This document shows, piece by piece, positions 1,079 to 23,842 of a DNA stretch of 24,411 bases; position 1 is the stretch's first letter; the number at the start of each line of letters is the position of its first letter. Below the pieces are notes generated by a model that saw nothing but the letters and a program-made list of their open reading frames with translations, did not search any database and was not told the origin of the DNA. Position numbers and translations under genes: made by a program. The stretch comes from a virus (lineage: Duplodnaviria; Caudoviricetes): positions 1-24,411 of the IMG/VR virus record IMGVR_UViG_3300028588_000082; one strand, 5' to 3'.

Positions 1079-2275
1079 GTCGGCCAAACCAACCTGTCGA
1101 GCGCTGCCGACCTCACCACCGACATCATGACGCAATTCGGGAAGTCGTCGAGCGACCTGCCCGGCATCGTCGACAAGGTGGCTGGCGCCCTGGATGCGTC
1201 GAAGCTGAGTTTCGACGACTATCGTCTTGCCGCCGGGCAGGCGGGCGGCCTGGTCGGTGCGCTCGGCTATAGCTTCGACGACTTCAACACCGCGCTGGCG
1301 GCGACCGCGCCGCTGTTCGACTCCGGCTCGGACGCGGGCACATCGTTCCGGACCTTCCTCACCTCGCTCAACGCCAAGAGCGAGGATGCCGTTCGCACGA
1401 TGAACAAGCTCGGCCTGTCGTTCTACGAGGCGGACGGATCGGCGCGGCCGCTGGCGCAGATCGCGGACGAGTTGCAGAAGAAAATGAGCAACCTGTCCGA
1501 TCGCTCGAAAAACGAGGCGTTGCAGAACATCTTCGGCGTCGACGGTGCGCGCACCGCGCTGGCACTGATGAAGCTGGGGCTGGAGGGTGTGGAGGACGCC
1601 CGCAAGAAGATCGGCGCAGTCACCGCCGATCAGAAGCTGGCAATCCTGCTGGACGGCGAGGCAGCGGCAACCCAGCGGGTGGCGAGCGCCTGGGAGAAGC
1701 TCAAGATCGTGTTCGGCGAAGCCGGCATCATCCAATTCTTCACCGCCATCAAAACCTTTGCGGCGGACGCCATCAACGTGATCGCCAGCGCACCGCCCTG
1801 GTTCTACAAGCTGGCCGCTGGCGTCGCGATCGTCGTCGCGTCTATCGGCCCCATGATCCTGGTGGGCACGGCGCTCGCCAAGGTTTTGCTGCCGCTGTTG
1901 CTGCTGCGGCTCGGCCCGGTTGCGCTAGGCTTCGCCGCGCTGATCAACCCGGTCGGCGTGGTCGTTCGCCTTCTTGGCCAGCTCGCCTTGCAGGCCGGTG
2001 CCGCGACCCTGATGGGGCGTCTGGGGACGGCGATGATCGGCGTCGCGGGTCCGGCCGGCCTGTTCATCGCTGCGCTGTCCCTGTTGATCCCCGCCATCAT
2101 GCAGGGCGGGCAGGTTTCCGAGTTCTACGCCAAGGCGCAGGGCGCGGTCAGTGCTGCGCAATGGGCCAACGCGGACCAGCGCAAGCGCGATCTGGACGGT
2201 GCTTATGCGGATAAGCGGGCTGGCGTGATGCGCCAGACCGAAGGCCCGGCCGAAAGCTTCATACGATCACTCAAT
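1076..2275 (+). pseudogene. Tape measure protein, 5'-truncated and internally deleted
   Basis: TP901-type core (GSDAGTSFRTFL, LGLSFY...G..RPL..I..EL, IFG.D..R) then a hydrophobic region; lacks its N-terminus and runs in frame into the next gene. Confidence 0.85.
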
Positions 2276-2877
2276 GTGAGTGAGCTTGTCCAACTCCCCG
2301 ACTGGCCGGCGCCGAATGGCGCCACGCCGGGTCTGATTGACTTTGGCGGCTTTCTTGTCCCGTTGCTGGGCGGGCGCGTGCAGCGCCTGGATCGCATGGG
2401 CAATCGCCACCGGATCGCGATCACGATCCCTCCGCTGGGATATGGCGACGAGGGCCGCATATGGATCCAGCGGCTCAAGCGTGGAAAGACCGCGGGCGTC
2501 CGGATGGAATATCCGCTGCTGGACTTCGAACCCGGCCCCTGTGGGAAGCCGGTGGCGGACGGCGCGGACCAGGGCGGGCGTCTGCTGAAGCTGCGCGGCC
2601 TGCGGCGCGGCTATGCGGTTCGTGAAGGCCAGCCCTTCTCGTTGGTCCAGCCTGAGGGCCGCTACCTTATTCGGCGGACCTTCCCGTGGCAGCGGATGCC
2701 AGCGGGCGAGCGACGGTGCAGGTCACACCTATGCTGCGCGCGCCGAGCATAGATGCGGGTGTGGTCGAGATGGCGCGGCCAATGATCGAAGGGTTCATCC
2801 GCGGGGACGAGCTGAGCTGGGAGCTTGATGTCGCTCACAATGTCGGACTGCAATTCGAGGTCGAGGAGTTCGCATGA
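2276..2877 (+). pseudogene. Distal tail (Dit)-like protein, fused to TMP and frameshifted at ~2668
   Basis: GTG 2276 starts MSELVQLPDWPAP...PLLGGRVQRLDRMG.R; the C-terminus (SADLPVAADASGRATVQVTPMLR...FEVEEFA*) continues in another frame. Confidence 0.7.
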
Positions 2878-5607: not shown

Positions 5608-7899
5608 ATGGCCGACACTGCTGCCAACGTCGCACTTGCCGTGCGGCGCTACGAAGTTGCGCGTTTCACGATCGCCGTGACCGGCATCGATCTGACCGGC
5701 GTGCCGATGAACATGCAGGTGCGGCCAGAGCGCGGCACCCCAGGGCCGCCGTTCATCCAACTCGGTACGGTCGCGACCGCTTCCGCCGAGGGCCTGAAGC
5801 TCGACAGCGTCACCGTCGTCGATGGCGTGCCTACAAGCATCATCAAGGGCCGCATCAACCAAACGACCATGTCGGACGATGACAAGGTTCCGTACTCGGG
5901 TGAGATGGGCTCCGACACGGTGATGGCGTACGCCATGCAGTGGACGCTGGGCGGTGACGCGCGGACGCGGATCGAGGGCGAGTTCACCGTTCGCGACAGC
6001 GCCTATGGCTCGGACAACGCGCCGCTGAGCCGTCCGCCGAGCTATTGCGGAGGCAGCGCGCGCCGCACGGGGGCGAGCAGCGGCTCGCTGACGTTTGGTG
6101 ACCAGGTGGTGCGGGTGAGCATCGCCGATATTGATCTCGCGGCTCCTGCAATTGCAGAGGCCACGCGGGCCGCGGCAGAAGCGGTGGCGGCGGCCGAGGC
6201 CGCCACCCGCGGCTTTCCCGCCCTCAGCGCCTCGCTCGGCTACGACCTGTCCGCCACCTCGACGCAGACCTATGGCTCGACCGCAGGGGACACGGGCTCC
6301 TATGCGTCCGGCTTCACGGTTGGCATCATTCATGCGATCCGCGAGCCTGCGCTGCTCGATAGCATCCAGCTCCGGCTCAGCGCGGCCGGCACCGGCAAGG
6401 TGCAGATCGTCGGCGCGGACAACGTGATCCGTGATGAGTATGCCGTGGACGCTCCCGCGGCCGGTCTGAACACGATCAACCTACTCGCCGCGTCGATACA
6501 GCTGCGCCCCGGCGACAAGCTGTTCTACAGGCGCCAGGCCGGCGGGTTCGTCCGCTACGGCACCGGGGGCGGCACCAATGCCGCCTATCCCGACGCGGCG
6601 CTCGGCGCGACGGTGACCATCACGAACGCGCAGACCAGCTCGTCCGCCATGGCGATCGTAGTGCGCAGCGTTTCGGGCAGCGCGGCGCGACGGGTGGCGA
6701 AGCTGGAGGCGCAGGTTGATCGGCTGACGTTCGGGCGCCCGGCACTGCGGCAGGTGGCGACGCGGTGCTTCGTCCCCAACCAGTTTTCCAGCAGCAAGAG
6801 CGGCAACGGGGAGTCGATCCACTACAATCGCTCGGGCACCACGCTGCGCGCGCTGGCGGTGGTGTTCGCCAACTGGATCATCTCGACGCCTGTCAGCAAC
6901 GCGGGTGCGCAGAACGGCACAAAGCACGCGAACCCCGGCGCGGTGACCTATACCGCCTCGATCGAATATCCGATCGGCAGCGGCATCCGGACGCTATTGA
7001 CCTGGGATGGCGGCGCGGTCTCCAAGGTGGCGGCGGGCGGCGCGACCATCACTTCCGACCATGTGCCCCTGCTGCGTGCCATTCCCGAAGGCGACGCGTT
7101 CAAGGTCATCAATCACCAGGAGGCTCAGAGCGGCATCGTCTACACCGCAGTGACCGGCACAACGCTCAAGATGACGGGCGACTTCCAGTTTGGCGCGGCG
7201 AGTGCGAACGGCACCAACGACGTGACGCCTGGCGGCATCATGACCGGCGGCAGCGCGGCTGGCTTCTGCCCGCCCCTCGCCATCCTGGGGACCGGCGTGA
7301 ACAAGGCCGCGCTGCTGATCGGCGATAGCCTCGTGCTCGGACAGACCGACGTGGCGGACCCGGCGGTGGGCAACAGCGGCATCTTCGCGCGCAGGATCGG
7401 GCAGACGCGCCCGTACATCGATGCGGGCGTCTCGGGTGATCGAGCGCAGTGGTTCCTCGCCAATGGCGCTGACCGGGCGGCGCTCGCGGCCTTCTGCGAT
7501 ACGGTCTACTGCGACTACGGCAACAACGACCTCTACAGCGGTGGTCGCACGGCCGAGCAGCTGGAGACGGACCTCGCCGCGGTGCGCGCGCTCTTCCCGA
7601 CGCTGCCGTTCCTCCAGTCCACCATCACGATGCGGACGGGCGGCAGCTGGGGCAGCGCCGGTGCGCAGACTGTGGATGACAAGGAGCCGGTGCGCGACGC
7701 GGTTAACACGTCGATCGCAGCCGCATCCGGCGGGATCACCACCCCGATCGACGTGGCCGGCTTCTTTGAGGACCCGGCAGCGAACGGCAAGTGGCGCAGC
7801 GATGGGCAGGCGTGGACGTCCGACGGCATCCACCCGAACGCCCATGGCTATGCACAGCTTCAGGCGGCGGGCGTCGTGCCGGTGACGGTGCTTGCCTGA
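5608..7899 (+). CDS. Tail spike/receptor-binding protein with C-terminal SGNH/GDSL esterase
   Basis: GGAG SD; all four SGNH blocks present: LIGDSL, AGVSGD, YGNND, DGIHPN. Confidence 0.85.
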   Translation: MADTAANVALAVRRYEVARFTIAVTGIDLTGVPMNMQVRPERGTPGPPFIQLGTVATASAEGLKLDSVTVVDGVPTSIIKGRINQTTMSDDDKVPYSGEMGSDTVMAYAMQWTLGGDARTRIEGEFTVRDSAYGSDNAPLSRPPSYCGGSARRTGASSGSLTFGDQVVRVSIADIDLAAPAIAEATRAAAEAVAAAEAATRGFPALSASLGYDLSATSTQTYGSTAGDTGSYASGFTVGIIHAIREPALLDSIQLRLSAAGTGKVQIVGADNVIRDEYAVDAPAAGLNTINLLAASIQLRPGDKLFYRRQAGGFVRYGTGGGTNAAYPDAALGATVTITNAQTSSSAMAIVVRSVSGSAARRVAKLEAQVDRLTFGRPALRQVATRCFVPNQFSSSKSGNGESIHYNRSGTTLRALAVVFANWIISTPVSNAGAQNGTKHANPGAVTYTASIEYPIGSGIRTLLTWDGGAVSKVAAGGATITSDHVPLLRAIPEGDAFKVINHQEAQSGIVYTAVTGTTLKMTGDFQFGAASANGTNDVTPGGIMTGGSAAGFCPPLAILGTGVNKAALLIGDSLVLGQTDVADPAVGNSGIFARRIGQTRPYIDAGVSGDRAQWFLANGADRAALAAFCDTVYCDYGNNDLYSGGRTAEQLETDLAAVRALFPTLPFLQSTITMRTGGSWGSAGAQTVDDKEPVRDAVNTSIAAASGGITTPIDVAGFFEDPAANGKWRSDGQAWTSDGIHPNAHGYAQLQAAGVVPVTVLA

Positions 7900-7994: not shown

Positions 7995-8243
7995 CTAATG
8001 CGTTCCGCCGTGGACGTGGTGAACTTCGATTTCGCTTTCTCCGAGAGCTTTCGCTTTCTTCCATAGCGTGGCGGTCAGCATTAGGAGTTCGCGAACTCTC
8101 TCACGGCCGAGCTGATTTTCCGAACCGGCAATCAGTTTCGTGATGGCAAAACACACCGACTGAATCGAAGCGTCCGGGCAATCGGTGGATATCGCGTCGA
8201 TCAGGCCCAGAAGCTCTTCCGGAGTGCCTGCATCGCCGGGCAT
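7995..8243 (-). CDS. Hypothetical 82-aa protein, last gene of the moron operon
   Basis: Start overlaps the FkbM stop (TAATG). Confidence 0.45.
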   Translation of the reverse strand: MPGDAGTPEELLGLIDAISTDCPDASIQSVCFAITKLIAGSENQLGRERVRELLMLTATLWKKAKALGESEIEVHHVHGGTH

Positions 8244-8986
8244 TATTTTGCCGTCGGCTTCAGGAATACGCCGTCACACTGGAGGAGATCCTGCGCGTTG
8301 ATGCGGCGTCGAAATCCGGGCGTGATGTCGGCTAACTTGAAGCCTAGTGCCGTGATCTTTTCGTAAACCTCGATAAACAGCGGCTGGCCTTCATAGAGGG
8401 AGACGAATGACATCTCCGTCTTGATGCCGACTATGCGATCAAGCGCGCCAGACGCGCCCTCGAGCACATCCATTTCGGTCCCCTGAGTATCAATCTTCAA
8501 GAGAACGTCGCCCTCTGGCACCAGGGCATCCAACATCGCATCGAGGCGATCCAGTGCCACTTTGATTTTCCGCACCTCTACGCTTTGCGGGGCAGCGGCT
8601 AGATGCAAGTCGCCCATTGGCAGAAGCGAACTGCTGATGCTGTTACCGGCTACGTGAAATTCGGCAGTGCCGGAGCGGTTGCTAAGTGCAACTGCCGGCG
8701 CGACGATCCATCGAGGGTTGCCTGCGGCGTTCTTGGCCAGAGTTTTGTGCTCGTCTGGCATGGGCTCAAACGATATGATCGTGCCGGTATAGCCGGCGGC
8801 AAACAGCTTGGTGGCGAATTGCCCCTCATTGGCGCCGACATCGAGCACGAACCTGATATTACGACGCTCTAGAAAGCCGGTCAGCTCGTCGAACTCCGGC
8901 GGATAAGGTCGATACTTCACGATCTTCAGTCCGAGTCCGTTGGTAACCCGGTGGAAGGATGTCTTTAGCGATTTGCGAACGCTCAT
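8243..8986 (-). CDS. FkbM family SAM-dependent methyltransferase
   Basis: VLDVGANEGQF, ISFEP and LLKIDTQGTEMDVLEG motifs. Confidence 0.92.
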   Translation of the reverse strand: MSVRKSLKTSFHRVTNGLGLKIVKYRPYPPEFDELTGFLERRNIRFVLDVGANEGQFATKLFAAGYTGTIISFEPMPDEHKTLAKNAAGNPRWIVAPAVALSNRSGTAEFHVAGNSISSSLLPMGDLHLAAAPQSVEVRKIKVALDRLDAMLDALVPEGDVLLKIDTQGTEMDVLEGASGALDRIVGIKTEMSFVSLYEGQPLFIEVYEKITALGFKLADITPGFRRRINAQDLLQCDGVFLKPTAK

Positions 8987-8989
8987 TGC

Positions 8990-10381
8990 CTACCGAGCTC
9001 CCTTGTGGCTTGCACCTTGTAACCGCCGCCGATGTAGCCGCAAGGCGCGAACTGACCGAGTAGCGCGGGTCCGTAGCCGCCTCAGGATGCCCTTTGCGCT
9101 ACCGGCCTCTACCAGATCAGCGGCGACGACAGCCTGCTGCTCCAGCGCCGTTCGCGTCCATGACATACGCAGCGCGACCTCTTGGGAACGGGGCAATGGA
9201 CTAATGATGGGCGACAGGTCCGCGGCCGCAAGCTTTGCATCGAACGCGCGGCCGCCATCGCCATCGGAGTAAACGTTGCCTAGGCCGTTCTTGCTTAGGA
9301 ACGTGGCGAAGGTCTCGAAGCGCTGGCGGTGACCACTAACCATGCGAGAATAATCAGCGCTCTCGTAAGCGAAACGAGGATCGCAGTCCGGCACAACGTC
9401 GGTCACCTTGAAATGCGGAATATCAAAATACTCGGCAATCTCCAGGGTCCTTGAATCGGTGGCCACGAGCCGAGCGGCTGTTCCAGCCAGCAACCCGGCG
9501 ATGCCTCCATGCAATCGGGTGCCGAAGACAAACTGACGGTCCCGTAGATAGTCCATCCAAGCGCGCGGATCGACAACGGCCTTGACGCCGCCGGCATCGT
9601 AGATTTTGGCGAAAGCCTCTGCTGGAATGGCTGCATGCTCCCCGTGGTCGCGGGGGGTGCCGAACAGCAGGTCATGAAGGCTGCGATCTTCCTGGGATAT
9701 GTAGCCGATGTCGTCGTATTTGGCGACTGCATGCCCGATCACCTGGCCCATGACGTCCAGGCGAGCCGCGAATTTTGACTGATGGCTTGGGGAGGTGACG
9801 TTCATTGCAAGCTTGGTTGATCGGTCGAATGAAGAAATTGGGCGCGGAGAAGCGAGGGTGGGGCCGTCCATGAACATCGAAGGACAGCCGATCACGTCGA
9901 CTGCATTGAAGCCAAGGCTTGTGAGGTAATCGCCTGTGCAGTGTCCTCGCACCCCGATCGTAGCCGACTTGTCCAGAACCGCGCCTACAAAGCGTTTGAC
10001 CGACGCGTCGATCGGACGAAGGTTATCGAAATTATAGAGCAAGTCGGTCTGGCATCCGACACCGACAACCACGACCGGCACTTTCAACTTGCGGATCGTG
10101 GTCGCCATCGCATCTAGCCGGTCGCCAAACTCGAGACGAAATTGATTGGCCAGCGGCAGGACCAGCATGTCGCAACTGTCATTGATCCTCGGAGCGTCTC
10201 CGGGCCTTAGGCCGAAGCCATTCGCGCGAAGGTCGTTCTGAGGCAGCGAGAGCGCTTTGAAGACGGATTGAGAGAATAGCATATTGCCGACGTTCGTGCC
10301 GGTCACGACCGTCCTGAGCGACGTGAAAGGGTCCATCGGCTCATAGGGAAGTTTGCCCGCTCTGATCAATATTCGCGGCAC
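8990..10381 (-). CDS. Polysaccharide pyruvyl transferase family protein
   Basis: NVGN, VVVVGVGCQ, IGVRG, GCPSMF and FGTRLHG motifs. Confidence 0.85.
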   Translation of the reverse strand: MPRILIRAGKLPYEPMDPFTSLRTVVTGTNVGNMLFSQSVFKALSLPQNDLRANGFGLRPGDAPRINDSCDMLVLPLANQFRLEFGDRLDAMATTIRKLKVPVVVVGVGCQTDLLYNFDNLRPIDASVKRFVGAVLDKSATIGVRGHCTGDYLTSLGFNAVDVIGCPSMFMDGPTLASPRPISSFDRSTKLAMNVTSPSHQSKFAARLDVMGQVIGHAVAKYDDIGYISQEDRSLHDLLFGTPRDHGEHAAIPAEAFAKIYDAGGVKAVVDPRAWMDYLRDRQFVFGTRLHGGIAGLLAGTAARLVATDSRTLEIAEYFDIPHFKVTDVVPDCDPRFAYESADYSRMVSGHRQRFETFATFLSKNGLGNVYSDGDGGRAFDAKLAAADLSPIISPLPRSQEVALRMSWTRTALEQQAVVAADLVEAGSAKGILRRLRTRATRSVRALRLHRRRLQGASHKGAR

Positions 10382-10603
10382 CTATCGCAACTCCCCGGCC
10401 AAAGTGTGCCCCTTAGGGGCGCGTGCCTCGCCGGGTCAACAAGGTCTGGTCGACGTGGGCGGCCTGTGACCGCTGTATTTAAACGAAGGAGACTGAAGAT
10501 GGCACCTGAAAGCGAACGCCGCGAGCGACGTTGCCAAGGCGCTCCACATGGGTGCGCTGATTGCGATGCCCATACCGCGCCTTTGCGAACATGAGCGCTT
10601 GAC

Positions 10604-10667
10604 GTGACCACGCCCCCCCCCGCCGCGCTGGCTGGACTATCTGCCGGCGATCTCGCTCGCGGTGGTG
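10604..10667 (+). pseudogene. Remnant 5' copy of the first lysis-cassette gene
   Basis: 10626-10657 is identical over 32 nt to 11506-11537 (RWLDYLPAISL); out of frame with its GTG and truncated. Confidence 0.85.
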
Positions 10668-10816: not shown

Positions 10817-10993
10817 CTAATCGGTGCGGTCGCCCCGACCGTCATCCGTAAGCCTGATCGATCTGCTTCGATCGTGCCCTCTTCGGCGGCGGTGTTGGTG
10901 GGATGGGTGCCCGCGCCGATCGAGCCAGACGAAGAGCAGGGCAACGCAGGCAAACGTCGCCAGCAGGATGATGTACATGGTAATCGATCGCAT
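10817..10993 (-). CDS. Small membrane protein B (copy 1), 58 aa
   Basis: One TM helix ending LFVWLDR plus a basic tail; homologous to 23696-23842. Confidence 0.7.
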   Translation of the reverse strand: MRSITMYIILLATFACVALLFVWLDRRGHPSHQHRRRRGHDRSRSIRLTDDGRGDRTD

Positions 10994-11173
10994 CTTCTTC
11001 CGTTCTCCCCGGCCCGTAGCCGGTGGACGCTTCGAAGCGTCGACCATCCGTTGCCAGTCGGGGTAATCCGCAGATCCTGCGGATGATCCCTGCATACCTC
11101 CATAAACTTGCAGCATCCCTTCGTTGAGGAAGCCACTTCGCTGCCCAACGGCAGCTGCGCGGCGCCGGTGCGG

Positions 11174-11299
11174 TCAGATCAGCAGGTACGTCGCCGACCA
11201 CACCGCGCACATGAGTAGCATGGCCAGGGCGATGCCGCTGCCGTGTGGGACCGGCGAGTCATTCTCGTCTTCGAGAGTTGGGGTGATGACTGTCTGCAT
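11174..11299 (-). CDS. Small membrane protein A (copy 1), 41 aa, not in ORF track
   Basis: GGAG SD; MQTVITPTLEDENDSPVPHGSGIALAMLLMCAVWSATYLLI; homologous to 23445-23573. Confidence 0.8.
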   Translation of the reverse strand: MQTVITPTLEDENDSPVPHGSGIALAMLLMCAVWSATYLLI

Positions 11300-11327
11300 G
11301 AGCCGTCTCCTTCGAACGGCCACTGAA

Positions 11328-11376
11328 TAGCGCTGCCATCTTTCGGCTTCATTGCGTCAGCGGGACGGTTTCATGA
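11328..11376. promoter_or_regulatory. Conserved 49-nt non-coding element (copy 1)
   Basis: 37/49 identical, ungapped, to the reverse complement of 23367-23415. Confidence 0.6.
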
Positions 11377-11428
11377 CAAACGGCAGCTTCGCGTCTCAAG
11401 CTCATCCTCATGTCCACTGGAGTACCAC

Positions 11429-11482
11429 ATGACCAACAGCAGCTTCGCGGCCCAGGCGGCCGCGGGACGCGGTGACGCGTGA
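11429..11482 (+). CDS. 17-aa leader ORF coupled to the lysis cassette (copy 1)
   Basis: GGAG SD; MTNSSFAAQAAAGRGDA*; GTGA overlap with 11479; same-length homolog at 23212-23265. Confidence 0.6.
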   Translation: MTNSSFAAQAAAGRGDA

Positions 11483-11745
11483 CGGCGCCAGCACCGCCCC
11501 GCCAACGCTGGCTGGACTATCTGCCGGCGATCTCGCTTGCCGTCGTGCTGTTCGGCGGCGCGCAGGCGGGAGGTGGGTATCTTTCCCAGTTGAAGGACAA
11601 CACGCGCCGCATCGAGCAGCTGGAGAAGGATGGGCGCGAGAAAGAGGCACTCCGAACGGAGATGCTCCAAAAGCTCGACCTGCGGCTGGCGCGTATCGAG
11701 GTAAAGCTGGAGATGATGGTGCCTGCCAAGGACAAGGCGCCATGA
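11479..11745 (+). CDS. Lysis-cassette membrane protein (TM + coiled coil), 88 aa
   Basis: N-terminal TM, ends LARIEVKLE; homolog at 22949-23215. Confidence 0.75.
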   Translation: MTAPAPPRQRWLDYLPAISLAVVLFGGAQAGGGYLSQLKDNTRRIEQLEKDGREKEALRTEMLQKLDLRLARIEVKLEMMVPAKDKAP

Positions 11746-13504: not shown

Positions 13505-13746
13505 TGCGGCAGGCCGAGCTGGCGGACGTTGGTCATCGGGAACTTGGCCTGGCCGCCCAGCACGTCCCAACTCATCACGTCGAGCCCGCAGCCGCGTTCG
13601 TCCTGGCGCACCACCCATGCCCGGCTGCGCGGCGCCAGCTCCACGGGATTGAAGCGGTTGTCCATCGGCCTGTCTGCCTTCCAGTCGGACTCGAAGTGCG
13701 CGAAGATGGTGGGCGCCTCTTTGATGTTGCGGGCTCGGTTGCACAT
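13505..13746 (-). pseudogene. SRAP family protein, 3'-truncated (~80 codons)
   Basis: MCNRARNIKEAP...MTNVRQLGLP closely matches the N-terminus of 19948-20598, then diverges abruptly. Confidence 0.9.
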
Positions 13747-14214: not shown

Positions 14215-14832
14215 TTGGTTACCATCGGACGTATTTGCGACGCGCCGCGGAACCACTACGCTAGGGAACAAACGAATCGGGGGTCAGAGTTGCACGACAT
14301 TCTAAACGAATTATCGCAGCTGGTAGAACTGGAGTTTGGCGTAGCTTCGGTTTTGCTCGCCCTTTCAATACCGGACGCTGCTGGAGCAATCGATTACCCA
14401 GATCTCAAGAATGGGCCTCGCTACGTAAAGTGGTTTGACACGTGGGTCGAAGAGCTGAATCTACCGGACGGCTTTGTTCTTGATGGAAAGGTAGCTTGGG
14501 CAATAAGGAATGCGCTCGTTCACGCATCGCGTTTGGATGAGGAGCGATTGGGCTTCAAGCAGGTAACGTTTCTACATCCCAAATCGCCAGTGCAGTATAA
14601 TGTGGTCATTTCCGACAATGGTGACGGAATTAGCCTCTCTATCGGAGCGCGATGGTTCTGCGAAAAGGTTCATGCTGCAACCGCGAGCTGGCTCGCCGAG
14701 GTGCACGAAGATCCGACGAAATCGGAGGGCCTTGCTTCTTTGTTGAGTCTCGGAATGAGGTCTCCAAACTTTGTTGTGGGACTTCCACAGATTGGCTCGT
14801 TCCCCAGTTGGCCGCCCCCTCTCACGGGATAA
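14215..14832 (+). CDS. Hypothetical protein with HEPN-like RxxxxH motif (start may be TTG 14290)
   Basis: Helical N-terminus LALSIPD, Y..WFD and AIRNALVH; visibly lower GC. Confidence 0.6.
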   Translation: MVTIGRICDAPRNHYAREQTNRGSELHDILNELSQLVELEFGVASVLLALSIPDAAGAIDYPDLKNGPRYVKWFDTWVEELNLPDGFVLDGKVAWAIRNALVHASRLDEERLGFKQVTFLHPKSPVQYNVVISDNGDGISLSIGARWFCEKVHAATASWLAEVHEDPTKSEGLASLLSLGMRSPNFVVGLPQIGSFPSWPPPLTG

Positions 14833-15123: not shown

Positions 15124-15167
15124 GGGCGCTTAGCTCAGTTGGTAGAGCATCTCGTTTACACCGAGAG
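15124..15167 (+). tRNA. 5' half of tRNA-Val(TAC); T-arm and 3' acceptor strand missing (probable att scar)
   Basis: GGGCGCT-TA-GCTC AGTTGGTA GAGC-A-TCTCG TTTACAC CGAGA-G, then unrelated sequence; anticodon TAC at 15157-15159. Confidence 0.9.
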
Positions 15168-15209
15168 AAATCAGCCCCGTTCCGGGCGCTGCGCCCCTTC
15201 AGCACGACA

Positions 15210-15680: not shown

Positions 15681-16526
15681 ATGACATTTAATAGCTCACC
15701 TGTAGGGGAGCAGCAGCTCGCCCTCGTGCCGCACACTTACCAAGGTTCGCTGATCCAGCAGCGGGCTGCGGACGGCTACATCAACGCCACGGCTATGTGC
15801 AAAGCTGCCGGAAAACTCTGGGCCGACTATAACCGGCTCGCAGCAACCCAAGCGTTCTTGGCGGCACTGTCGAGCGATATGGGGATCCCCATATCGGAAA
15901 TAGTGCAGTCCATTCGGGGCGGCGATACCGCGCTGCAGGGAACTTGGGTGAACCCTCAAGTGGCCGTGCATTTGGCGCAGTGGCTTTCCCCCGAGTTCGC
16001 AGTGAAAGTTAGCCAATGGATCGTTGAGTGGATGTCGGGCAAGCGCCCGTCAGATCGGGTGTGGCGCCAGTTCGAAGACCGCGTGTCACTCGTGTACGAC
16101 AACGTGCCTGTGGGCTACTTCTGCGTTTTCCAGCAAATCGCCGATTTGTTCGCGTCGATGATCAGCAACGGCGCTGACTTCGGCACAAAGATGATCTTAG
16201 ATGGAAGCGTCGGCTGCTGCTGGGGCCCACATTGGACGAAGACGAATCTGGAAGCGCAGTTCGGCCCCCGAATGAAGTTCGACCACCACTATCCAAGCTA
16301 CTTCCCGCAGGCTTGGTCGAACCCGCAGGACGCGTGGTGCTATCCGGAAGACGCGCTTCCCACGTTCAGACGCTGGCTGCGCGATTTCTACATCCCTCAG
16401 AAGATGCCGGCGTACCTAAAGAACATGGTCAGCCAGAAGAAGCTGGCAGCTCCGATCGCTAACAACACGCTGGCGGCTCTCGCAGCCCGCGAGGCTGGGC
16501 GCGCTCTTGCCCGTCCCGGCAAGTAA
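15681..16526 (+). CDS. KilA-N domain protein with BstA-like C-terminal domain (putative abortive-infection protein)
   Basis: KilA-N: DGYINATAMCK, QGTWV.P.VA.HLAQWLSPEFAV.V. C-terminus W.QF.DRVSL...VP.GYF.VF...D.SVG..W...YP.YFPQA.SNPQ..W.YP..AL..FRRW resembles BstA as I recall it. Confidence 0.8.
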   Translation: MTFNSSPVGEQQLALVPHTYQGSLIQQRAADGYINATAMCKAAGKLWADYNRLAATQAFLAALSSDMGIPISEIVQSIRGGDTALQGTWVNPQVAVHLAQWLSPEFAVKVSQWIVEWMSGKRPSDRVWRQFEDRVSLVYDNVPVGYFCVFQQIADLFASMISNGADFGTKMILDGSVGCCWGPHWTKTNLEAQFGPRMKFDHHYPSYFPQAWSNPQDAWCYPEDALPTFRRWLRDFYIPQKMPAYLKNMVSQKKLAAPIANNTLAALAAREAGRALARPGK

Positions 16527-19947: not shown

Positions 19948-20598
19948 ATGTGCAACCGAGCCCGCAACATCAAGGAAGCCCCAACGCTACGCACCGCGTT
20001 CGGCGCCGAATGGCTGGCCGACCGGCCAATGGACAATCGCTTCAATCCGGTCGAGCTTACACCCAAGAGCCGGGCGTGGGTGGTCCGCCAGGACGAGCGC
20101 GGGCGCGGCATCGACGTGATGAGCTGGGACGTGCTGGGCGGCCAGGGCAAGTGGCCGATGACCAACGTCCGCCAGCTCGGCCTGCCGCAATGGAGGCGGC
20201 TCGCCGCAAACCCTGAGAACCGCTGCTTGATCCCGCTCACTGAGTTCTGCGAGTGGACGCCGGAGCCGATCGACCTGAATGACGGCAAGAAGCCGGTGAA
20301 GGGCGAGATGTGGTTCGAGGTAATAGACCAGCCCCTGTTCGCCGTCGCCGGGTTCTGGCAGCCCACCGCGCAAGGCAACGGCTTCACCATGGTCACCTGC
20401 GACCCGAACGAACTGGTCGAGCCGATCCACCCCAAGGCGATGATCACCGTCCTGCATCAGGAGGATTGGGACCGGTGGCTCACGGCGAGCTACGACGAGA
20501 TCGTGCAGCTGCAGAAGCCATATCCGGCCGATCGCATGACGGTGCGCGGGCCGGTGTTTCCGACGCGCGAGAAGCAGCCACTGAAACTGCTCCTGTGA
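19948..20598 (+). CDS. SOS response-associated peptidase (SRAP/YedK family abasic-site protection protein)
   Basis: N-terminal MC, RCLIP..EF.EW, FAVAGFW and IHPKAM motifs. Confidence 0.92.
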   Translation: MCNRARNIKEAPTLRTAFGAEWLADRPMDNRFNPVELTPKSRAWVVRQDERGRGIDVMSWDVLGGQGKWPMTNVRQLGLPQWRRLAANPENRCLIPLTEFCEWTPEPIDLNDGKKPVKGEMWFEVIDQPLFAVAGFWQPTAQGNGFTMVTCDPNELVEPIHPKAMITVLHQEDWDRWLTASYDEIVQLQKPYPADRMTVRGPVFPTREKQPLKLLL

Positions 20599-22697: not shown

Positions 22698-22952
22698 TTA
22701 ATGCCTCCGCAGCCAGCGGCGGCGTTGTCGGCAGAGTTTCTGGCTTTCCAACACCGCGTCGGCGTCGGCCGCGAGGCGTTCAAGATCGCGGGCAATGGGC
22801 GGAGGCGGGAATGCGGAGCGCAGCGCCGGCTCAATCACCGTCTCGACGGTTGCCTCCAGCCAGCGCCTGCGGGCAACGGCCTGTTCCGTCACAGACCAGA
22901 GCAGGGACAGCGCACCCAGGATCATCAGCACAAGGCCGCCGTCGATCGTCAT
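22698..22952 (-). CDS. Lysis-cassette membrane protein, 84 aa (copy 2)
   Basis: Homolog of 11742-11996. Confidence 0.7.
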   Translation of the reverse strand: MTIDGGLVLMILGALSLLWSVTEQAVARRRWLEATVETVIEPALRSAFPPPPIARDLERLAADADAVLESQKLCRQRRRWLRRH

Positions 22953-23215
22953 GGCGCCTTCCTCTCGGGCGGCACCAGCAGCTCCAGCTTCGTCTCGATC
23001 CGCGCGGTTCGATCCAGCAGCTTCTGCTGCATTTCCATCCGCTTGTCGGTGTCCTCGCGCGCGTCCTTCTCCAGCTGCTCGATGCGGCGCGTGTTGTCCT
23101 TCAGCTGGGAGATGTACTGGCCGCCTACCTGGAAGCCACCCGCCAGCACCACCGCAAGCGAGATCGCCGGCAGATAGTCGAGCCATCGTTGGCGTGGTGG
23201 CGTCGGTGTGGTCAC
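22949..23215 (-). CDS. Lysis-cassette membrane protein, 88 aa (copy 2)
   Basis: Homolog of 11479-11745. Confidence 0.75.
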   Translation of the reverse strand: MTTPTPPRQRWLDYLPAISLAVVLAGGFQVGGQYISQLKDNTRRIEQLEKDAREDTDKRMEMQQKLLDRTARIETKLELLVPPERKAP

Positions 23216-23265
23216 GCGTCACCGCCTTCCGCGACCGCCAAGGCCGCGAAGCTGCTGTCGTTCAT
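23212..23265 (-). CDS. 17-aa leader ORF (copy 2)
   Basis: MNDSSFAALAVAEGGDA*; GTGA overlap with 23215; AAAGG upstream. Confidence 0.6.
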   Translation of the reverse strand: MNDSSFAALAVAEGGDA

Positions 23266-23366
23266 GCGGTGTACCTTTCAGGTTGAGGGCCGTGCGGATC
23301 TTTACACAGGTGCGCAGATGATTTGCGCCTAGCGCCGCGCCAGTGGGCCGCGCCGAGCAACCAGCG

Positions 23367-23415
23367 TCATGAAGCTGCCTTCTTCACGCAACGATGCTGA
23401 AAGATGGCTGCGCTA
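23367..23415. promoter_or_regulatory. Conserved 49-nt non-coding element (copy 2)
   Basis: Reverse complement is 37/49 identical to 11328-11376. Confidence 0.6.
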
Positions 23416-23444: not shown

Positions 23445-23573
23445 ATGCAGACGGCCATTCACGCGACGCTCGAAGACGAGAACAACTCGCCGATGCCCTA
23501 TGGAGGTGGCATCGCTTGGGCGCTTTTGACGACCATCGCCTGTTGGGGAGTGGCGATTTACCTGCTCGCTTGA
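23445..23573 (+). CDS. Small membrane protein A (copy 2), 42 aa, not in ORF track
   Basis: AGGAGG SD; MQTAIHATLEDENNSPMPYGGGIAWALLTTIACWGVAIYLLA. Confidence 0.8.
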   Translation: MQTAIHATLEDENNSPMPYGGGIAWALLTTIACWGVAIYLLA

Positions 23574-23695
23574 CCGCACCGGGTCGCGACGCCGCCGCGA
23601 AGTTCAGGCCCGCGAGAGCGCAATGATTGCGAAGGTATGCGGATCACGGCTGATCGGGTATGACGCAACCTGCTCAAACAGGGGGCGGCGAGCCT

Positions 23696-23842
23696 ATGGT
23701 CCTATACCTGGTAGTCTTGGCTGCGGCTTTTGCTAGCATCGCTGGCCTGTTCCTCTGGCTTGATCGGCCCAAGGGCCATAGATCGCGTGGTCGAAGAACG
23801 AAGCATGACATGACTAGGTCGCCGACCAAGACGGGCGAGTGA
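23696..23842 (+). CDS. Small membrane protein B (copy 2; alternative start 23660)
   Basis: TM ending LFLWLDR plus a basic tail. Confidence 0.7.
   Translation: MVLYLVVLAAAFASIAGLFLWLDRPKGHRSRGRRTKHDMTRSPTKTGE

What the first reader, a model, noticed from the sequence alone, without database searches (positions are those of the whole stretch)
10817..11376. Unannotated two-gene micro-membrane-protein module conserved in both prophages, antisense between tail and lysis genes
Seen: protein A (41/42 aa; MQT....TLEDEN.SP.P.G.GIA + TM + YLL) and protein B (TM + LF.WLDR + basic tail) occur in the same order and orientation at 10817-11299 (-) and 23445-23842 (+). Protein A has an SD in both copies and a shared TGACCGCACCGG at its stop. 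Protein motifs are kept despite much DNA divergence, implying selection. A is below the ORF-track cutoff. Inference: a lysogen-expressed system such as superinfection exclusion, antiholin/lysis timing, or a type I-like toxin pair.
Basis: partly seen in the sequence, partly recalled or inferred. Interest (0 to 1): 0.8.

Follow-up and report, generated by a model that had tools for sequence, protein, structure and literature searches.

The report
Prophage cargo of tiny membrane proteins
Two neighbouring prophage ends each carry, backwards between their tail and lysis genes, a conserved gene for a 41-42-residue predicted membrane protein of an unnamed family and a probable second small membrane gene; they are likely add-on cargo that would alter the host's surface sugars to keep rival phages out, but no function has been tested.

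Summary
Gene A (41/42 aa, 61% identical) has a ribosome site in both copies, dN/dS about 0.2, one predicted C-terminal membrane helix, and eight homologues outside the window. It matches no Pfam, PHROG, NCBIfam or PADLOC family. Gene B is probably coding (dN/dS about 0.36 in its core), but no homologue was found.

'Conserved module' is overstated. The two copies share their lysis junction and probably stem from one capture. A was found in 0 of 14 related phage records, and the one outside homologue with readable DNA lies in a non-phage context without B.

The site is a swap slot. It is empty in 5 of 7 close relatives, holds an antisense sugar acetyltransferase in one, and holds two glycan-modifying enzyme genes behind copy 1. 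A's invariant motif resembles the loop and second helix of WecA/WbpL-type glycan-initiating enzymes, but this is not significant after correcting for search size.

Best reading: moron cargo that likely remodels surface polysaccharide to exclude phages, working like D3 Iap (about 35%). Antiholin and type I toxin readings get little support. The scan's notes held nothing on this sequence.

The parts
11174..11299 (-). Gene A, copy 1: 41-aa protein with an acidic disordered N-terminus, a P-x-P-H-G-x-G-I-A-x-A motif and one predicted C-terminal membrane helix
23445..23573 (+). Gene A, copy 2: 42 aa, 61% identical to copy 1 and 73-76% identical to three homologues from other datasets
10817..10993 (-). 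Probable gene B, copy 1 (58 aa from the likely start): N-terminal membrane helix, LFxWLDR, basic tail
23696..23842 (+). Probable gene B, copy 2 (48 aa; alternative start at 23660)
11328..11377 (-). Conserved non-coding block upstream of A, copy 1 (38 of 50 nt identical to copy 2); candidate promoter or regulator site, type unresolved
   Evidence: score 52 against 17 +/- 3, 0 of 1000 shuffles; no sigma-70 consensus
23366..23415 (+). Conserved non-coding block upstream of A, copy 2
11165..11176 (-). 12-nt element starting at the stop codon of A, identical in copy 2 (23571-23582, +); role unknown
8990..10381 (-). Polysaccharide pyruvyl transferase family gene in the same slot, co-oriented downstream of copy 1 (58% GC)
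   Evidence: (PF04230, E 1e-10)
8243..8986 (-). FkbM-family methyltransferase gene in the same slot, co-oriented downstream of copy 1
   Evidence: PF05050; TIGR01444, over cut-off
10596..10667 (+). Remnant of the 5' end of the 88-aa lysis-cassette gene, between B1 and the enzyme genes; probable scar of a separate insertion or recombination
11479..11745 (+). Flank: 88-aa membrane gene opening the left lysis cassette (no family match; holin-like role inferred from position)
22949..23215 (-). Flank: 88-aa membrane gene opening the right lysis cassette
5608..7899 (+). Flank: 763-aa tail-fibre-position protein of the left prophage with a C-terminal GDSL/SGNH esterase domain
   Evidence: PF13472, E 8e-11; tail-fibre role inferred from position

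Best explanation
A, and probably B, are small cargo genes in a swap slot between tail and lysis genes; they are likely transcribed from their own promoter in the lysogen, and A's predicted single membrane helix would bind and dampen a host membrane enzyme of surface-polysaccharide synthesis, changing the phage receptor and so likely excluding related phages. Shown: the genes, selection on them, the hydrophobic anatomy, the variable slot and its glycan-enzyme cargo. Inferred: expression in the lysogen, membrane insertion, the target, exclusion, and any joint action of A and B. The candidate target class is the WecA/WbpL-type initiating transferase, whose loop and second helix A's invariant motif resembles.
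For: Selection on A and B. One helix at residues 21-40 after a disordered N-terminus; peak hydropathy 1.7-2.5 in all 10 family members. The slot is optional: among 7 close relatives it is empty in 5 (L002, L003, L005-L007), holds a small antisense ORF in L004, and holds an antisense NeuD/PglB/VioB-family sugar acetyltransferase in L008. Copy 1 shares the slot and strand with a polysaccharide pyruvyl transferase and an FkbM methyltransferase, and the tail-fibre-position protein carries an esterase domain, which fits a polysaccharide receptor (inference). In 150 unselected Campylobacterota genomes the 7 best hits of the A profile, and 9 of 16 hit places, were WecA/WbpL-type transferases matched at the P-T-P-H/R-G-G-G-I-A motif. 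Precedent: the 31-aa D3 Iap mimics a Wzz membrane helix and inhibits Wzy (PMC12004945, passages); 40-90-aa Gnarl proteins alter O-antigen without phage enzymes (PMC12373910, passages).
Against: No expression or phenotype data. The transferase resemblance scores 19-20 bits: p about 0.001 per genome, but 0.12-0.2 over the 300 Mb searched, and the nine hits are one family, so they count once. A similar stretch of the profile (positions 14-38) also matches an unrelated macrodomain weakly (E 0.4), so it may be a generic glycine loop before a helix. A lacks the basic residues that precede the motif in the enzymes. The enzyme genes behind copy 1 are separated from B by a lysis-gene remnant and are absent from copy 2, so they may be a separate insertion. 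No replacement polymerase of the D3 type was identified nearby. The only outside homologue with readable DNA (L011) lies beside DUF6065 and IS transposase genes, not in a phage. No sigma-70 promoter or terminator was found.
Confidence: 0.35

Rival explanations
1. A and B are ordinary accessory small membrane proteins of the host lineage (stress or envelope modulators) that an ancestral prophage picked up once; they give a general fitness effect unrelated to phage exclusion and do not act as a pair.
For: L011 has an A-like gene without B in a non-phage context. No true A homologue was found in 2.9 million viral contigs by peptide or DNA patterns, nor in 14 related records. A and B are not translationally coupled.
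Against: All 8 outside homologues are singleton clusters or short-contig proteins, and the genome-contig scan found no close homologue among 185,579 species representatives, which fits a rare mobile gene better than a common chromosomal one. L011's protein is the most divergent member (30-38% identity).
Confidence: 0.27
2. A and/or B are inner-membrane superinfection-exclusion proteins that block DNA entry after adsorption, as HK97 gp15 does, without changing surface glycans.
For: Small single-pass membrane anatomy and moron-like position. gp15 is a small inner-membrane moron protein in a tail operon that blocks genome injection (PMC3594210, part 1 of 3 read).
Against: No family match in PHROGs, Pfam, NCBIfam or PADLOC. 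This reading does not explain the glycan-enzyme cargo in the same slot. A has no residues beyond its helix.
Confidence: 0.2
3. Type I-like toxin module: B (membrane helix plus basic tail) or A is a small toxin held off by an antisense RNA or by its partner, stabilising the prophage or aborting infection.
For: B has a hydrophobic N-terminus and a charged tail (11 and 9 K/R after the helix), the general build of type I toxins (recalled). Short non-coding elements around A are conserved.
Against: No Rfam antitoxin or toxin-leader match. Of 8 leader, spacer and downstream stretches folded, only one reached z -2.1 and its counterpart in the other copy did not (z -0.35). No antisense promoter or terminator. 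No toxin family match. B lacks the A-P-x-x-x-G motif recalled for Fst/Ldr toxins.
Confidence: 0.08
4. Antiholin or lysis-timing factors acting on the adjacent lysis proteins.
For: Both copies abut the lysis cassette, and both proteins are membrane-bound by prediction.
Against: They face away from the late operon. 7 of 7 close relatives with the same 88-aa gene lack them in the slot. A is far more diverged between the copies (dS 1.7) than the 88-aa gene (0.69) or lysozyme (0.35), which does not suggest a fixed partner.
Confidence: 0.06

Closest known systems
Pseudomonas phage D3 Iap (31-aa inhibitor of the alpha-polymerase Wzy; PMC12004945 and PMC4815439, passages)
   Same: Tiny prophage-borne membrane peptide; proposed here to act likewise as a look-alike of a host helix on a surface-polysaccharide enzyme.
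   Different: No sequence link shown (Iap itself was not compared). Iap mimics Wzz and needs a beta-polymerase and an O-acetylase; no polymerase was identified here, and A's resemblance is to WecA/WbpL-type transferases and is not significant after correction.
HK97 gp15 moron (PMC3594210, part 1 of 3 read)
   Same: Small inner-membrane protein inserted among morphogenesis genes, absent from related phages, different GC.
   Different: gp15 lies within the tail operon with its own promoter and terminator and has a shown function. Here the genes are antisense at the tail-lysis boundary, no terminator was found, and there is no family match.
Gnarl1-3 phage accessory proteins (PMC12373910, passages)
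   Same: 40-90-aa phage accessory proteins that change O-antigen as stand-alone effectors; same size class and same proposed benefit.
   Different: Found in E. coli phages; Gnarl3 binds GalU. Sequences were not compared here.
WecA/WbpL/MraY-type transferases (Pfam PF00953; TIGR02380-related)
   Same: Share the P-x-P-H-G-G-G-I-A-x-A motif followed by a membrane helix.
   Different: These are 320-340-aa enzymes; A is 41 aa, has no catalytic domain and has acidic rather than basic residues before the motif. A is not a member.
Salmonella phage epsilon15 conversion genes (alpha-polymerase inhibitor noted in PMC4815439 passages; gene layout recalled only)
   Same: Small inhibitor of O-antigen synthesis; recalled to lie near the tailspike and lysis genes.
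   Different: The genome paper was not held, so the layout is unverified; no sequence comparison was made.

Membership tests
Phage moron (definition in PMC3594210) | Extra DNA absent from the same position in related phages | tested here: met
   A absent from the slot in 7 of 7 close relatives and from 14 of 14 records searched whole; slot empty in 5 of 7
Phage moron (definition in PMC3594210) | GC content differs from flanking genes | tested here: met
   60.9% and 60.3% against 66.7% and 66.8% in the lysis cassettes; a modest difference
Phage moron (definition in PMC3594210) | Own promoter | tested here: inconclusive
   Conserved 50-nt upstream block, but no sigma-70 consensus; the scan does not cover other promoter types
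Phage moron (definition in PMC3594210) | Own terminator | tested here: not met
   0 intrinsic-terminator-like sites around either copy
Phage moron (definition in PMC3594210) | Expressed from the repressed prophage | not testable with these tools
   Needs RNA or ribosome data from a lysogen
Iap-like conversion inhibitor | Single small membrane peptide | tested here: met
   41-42 aa, one helix at 21-40
Iap-like conversion inhibitor | Resembles a membrane helix of a host polysaccharide-synthesis protein | tested here: inconclusive
   Best hits are WecA/WbpL-type; p 0.12-0.2 after correction; no host enzyme was available to compare
Iap-like conversion inhibitor | Adjacent replacement polymerase | tested here: not met
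   Neighbours scanned are a pyruvyl transferase and a methyltransferase in copy 1 and none in copy 2
Iap-like conversion inhibitor | Sequence similarity to Iap | not tested
   Iap was not fetched; A hits no library family
WecA/WbpL/MraY transferases (PF00953) | Multi-pass catalytic domain of about 320 aa | tested here: not met
   41 aa; no PF00953 match in 10 of 10 members
Type I toxin-antitoxin | Small hydrophobic protein with a charged tail | tested here: met
   True of B, not of A; a generic feature
Type I toxin-antitoxin | Antisense antitoxin RNA and a structured, SD-hiding leader | tested here: inconclusive
   No Rfam match, no structure conserved in both copies, no antisense promoter or terminator; RNA data lacking
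Type I toxin-antitoxin | Toxicity on expression | not testable with these tools
   Bench test
Antiholin | Co-transcribed with the holin and kept with it in related phages | tested here: not met
   Opposite strand; absent from 7 of 7 relatives that keep the 88-aa gene

The most novel reading that the evidence does not exclude
Protein A defines a family of 41-residue membrane peptides that copy the active-site loop and second helix of WecA/WbpL-type initiating transferases and poison them from within the membrane, shutting down surface-glycan synthesis at its first step. With B and slot-borne glycan enzymes it would form a minimal receptor-conversion kit of alphaproteobacterial prophages, aimed at a target for which the paper searches made here returned no phage peptide inhibitor.
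Probability: 0.12. Interest if true: 0.8.

Novelty: new member of a known kind. Interest (0 to 1): 0.4.

Why it matters
Small membrane cargo of prophages is a proven source of exclusion factors and of natural inhibitors of envelope enzymes (gp15, Iap, Gnarl). This adds an unnamed family with 10 sequences, a sharp invariant motif and a cheap test (a 41-codon gene). If the transferase look-alike is real, it would be a natural peptide inhibitor of the first step of surface-glycan synthesis, in an enzyme superfamily that includes MraY. If not, it is one more orphan moron, plus evidence that the tail-lysis boundary of these prophages is a cargo slot worth mining.

Tried and rejected
Family libraries: no match for A or B in PHROGs or PADLOC. 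Only sub-threshold hits elsewhere: MotA/ExbB E 0.029 in 1 of 10 A members and TIGR04267 E 0.008 for B1, both rejected. ESM Atlas: unnamed clusters only, 0.93 for A and 0.86 for B. PDB profile search: macrodomain only, E 0.4.

Homologue rows dropped: 4 of 9 hits (P0006, P0008, P0010, P0011) are long, multi-stretch proteins; only P0010 was read. L012 and L013 are chance frames and L001 is a transferase. DNA-pattern scans of viral contigs gave only unrelated matches: 8 of 8, 2 of 2, 5 of 5. No match for the copy 2 module DNA in annotated phages, and only chance matches in plasmids; none for A proteins in plasmids. B: no homologue among 25 candidates or in viral contigs; because the window's own B copies were not found either, this blank says little.

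The 99-aa reading of B1 and a conserved upstream ORF before A were rejected: not shared between copies. The similarity of P0007's N-terminal extension to the upstream DNA was not significant (54 of 1000 shuffles at best); the upstream motif shared with L011 is weak (5 and 58 of 1000).

No RNA holder was listed. No whole genomes of the likely host group could be searched, and continuity of the contig between the two lysis cassettes was not checked in independent reads.

Papers: searches returned nothing on this family; PMC2698709 was not held; PMC9936078 was seen as abstract only and not used; PMC11436027 was seen as passages, background only. No supplements were read.

Full report
Setting. The window is a single virus record of 24,411 bases. 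It holds two converging prophage ends. On the left are tail tube, tape-measure and tail genes, a 763-aa protein with a GDSL esterase domain, and a lysis cassette. On the right, inverted, are a second lysis cassette and the end of a tail region. The cassettes are 78.5% and 88.4% identical in DNA. Between them lie half a tRNA gene, a BstA homologue, a Crp/Fnr gene and an SRAP gene. The best named matches to a tail protein are Caulobacter phages, and to the Crp/Fnr protein alphaproteobacterial plasmids.

The observation. A is 41/42 aa and 61% identical. Nei-Gojobori counts give pS 0.67 and pN 0.27, dN/dS about 0.2, p 8e-5, the same ratio as the lysozyme. An ungapped codon-position test agrees (p 0.012). 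B is alike mainly in its membrane segment and WLDR end. Its core gives dN/dS about 0.36 (p 0.037) and an ungapped position test p 0.038; the lower p for full-length B rests on a protein-guided gapped alignment and is biased. I put A at about 95% and B at about 75% likely to be a gene. Copy 1 DNA is not an assembly artefact: contigs from two other studies match it without differences at 10829-10979, 11065-11255 and 11321-11471, the last spanning the junction to the lysis leader (4 of 6 listed runs laid).

The A family. Three searches gave eight outside homologues: 4 of 4 candidates (two are the window's own), 5 of 9 rows kept, and 10 of 1042 candidates. Those looked up are singleton clusters, unnamed or 'hypothetical' (P0013 and P0014 were not looked up). 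The alignment has invariant P18, G20, G22, I23, A24 and A26, and near-invariant W34, Y38 and L39. All members end in a 19-residue hydrophobic stretch with almost no tail, and nine of ten have an acidic N-terminus. The model is a disordered N-terminus and one helix at 21-40 (pLDDT 89-95 there). Copy 1 is 88% identical to P0003, and copy 2 is 73-76% identical to P0004, P0005 and P0013, so both types circulate elsewhere. The only outside member with readable DNA, L011 (the most divergent), sits between a DUF6065 gene, an unnamed membrane gene and IS transposase genes, without B.

Is it a module? The evidence is two copies in one contig that share their junction with the lysis leader, which probably reflects a single capture. 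A was found in 0 of 14 related phage records (4 of them at least 90% complete), and B gave one stop-containing hit at E 0.03. Scans of 2.9 million viral contigs found neither. The genes are 122-180 nt apart. Retention of both ORFs while the spacer decayed shows that each is selected, not that they act together.

The slot. In 7 close relatives with the same 88-aa gene, the tail gene runs straight into the lysis leader in five. L004 has a small antisense ORF there and L008 an antisense NeuD/PglB/VioB sugar acetyltransferase above the family cut-off. Copy 1 is followed on the same strand by a polysaccharide pyruvyl transferase and an FkbM methyltransferase at 58% GC, though a remnant of the 88-aa gene lies between. 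The modules are 60-61% GC against 67% in the lysis genes and keep a 50-nt upstream block with 38 identical bases. This meets two of the features of a moron given in PMC3594210 (part 1 of 3 read); a promoter is unproven and no terminator was found.

The transferase look-alike. The single genome-contig hit of A was the loop and second helix of a WecA/WbpL-type transferase. That hit was selected by the pattern, so I searched 150 further genomes of the same phylum. Fifteen had a match at E 0.1 or better; the 7 best places, and 9 of 16 in all, were the same enzyme family. Profile-profile comparison gave 92.7% probability over 16 columns, and 0 of 150 column-shuffled profiles reached the real score on that set, but the set was chosen for resembling A. 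On 400 kb of decoy DNA, 200 shuffled profiles peaked at 14.4 bits; extrapolated, 19-20 bits has p about 0.001 per genome and 0.12-0.2 over all genomes searched. The same part of the profile weakly matches a macrodomain. The resemblance is therefore a lead, not a result.

Mechanism. I commit, at about 35%, to receptor conversion: a lysogen-made membrane peptide that hinders a host surface-glycan enzyme. It rests on the slot's glycan cargo, the esterase-bearing tail protein, the motif lead, and precedent: Iap is a 31-aa mimic of a Wzz helix (PMC12004945 and PMC4815439, passages), and Gnarl proteins of 40-90 aa alter O-antigen alone (PMC12373910, passages). Every functional step is inferred. Rivals are host accessory genes with a general effect (27%), a gp15-like entry block (20%), a type I toxin (8%) and an antiholin (6%). 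The last two have tested features against them: no antitoxin RNA or shared structure, and opposite strand plus absence from relatives that keep the lysis genes.

Verdict. A real, unnamed family of tiny membrane proteins riding as prophage cargo: a new member of a known kind. The kind is common; this scan's notes list several similar orphan membrane morons in other genomes but nothing on this sequence or genome. Interest 0.4, held up by the testable transferase-mimic lead and held down by thin synteny and the lack of any functional evidence.

Noticed in passing
window 11429-11482 (+) and 23212-23265 (-); L004 4948-5004, L005-L007 4909-4965, L008 4936-4992: A 17-18-codon leader ORF with its own SD-like site ends on the start of the 88-aa lysis gene in both window copies and in 5 of 7 close relatives. 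A similar N-terminus opens a 177-aa membrane protein at the same position in L014-L018. Between the window copies it shows 1 synonymous and 6 non-synonymous changes, so it may act by translational coupling or as an RNA/DNA element rather than as a peptide.
   Followed up: partly
window 15681-16526 (+): BstA abortive-infection homologue with an N-terminal KilA-N domain (PHROG 6287 E 4e-68; PADLOC E 2e-55) between the two prophage ends.
   Followed up: no
window 15124-15197 (+): tRNA-like sequence with a TAC anticodon whose 3' part looks replaced (Rfam hit, not called by ARAGORN), preceded by a TTGACG-17-TAAAT promoter-like site; probable integration scar.
   Followed up: no
window 8243-10381 (-): Polysaccharide pyruvyl transferase and FkbM methyltransferase genes at 58% GC, antisense behind an esterase-bearing tail protein; a candidate surface-conversion cassette in its own right.
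   Followed up: partly
L008 4251-4937 (-): NeuD/PglB/VioB-family sugar acetyltransferase, antisense, in the same tail-lysis slot of a related phage.
   Followed up: partly
window 13505-13746 (-) and 1127-2752 (+): Signs of decay in the left prophage: only about 240 nt of its SRAP gene match the intact copy at 19948-20598, and the tape-measure ORF is short (541 aa) and appears to run into downstream tail sequence.
   Followed up: no
window 10596-10667 (+): Third, truncated copy of the 5' end of the 88-aa lysis gene (83% identical), between B1 and the enzyme genes.
   Followed up: partly
window 14215-14832 (+): Lower-GC orphan gene (PHROG 18591, unknown function) after the left lysis cassette; possible further cargo.
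   Followed up: no
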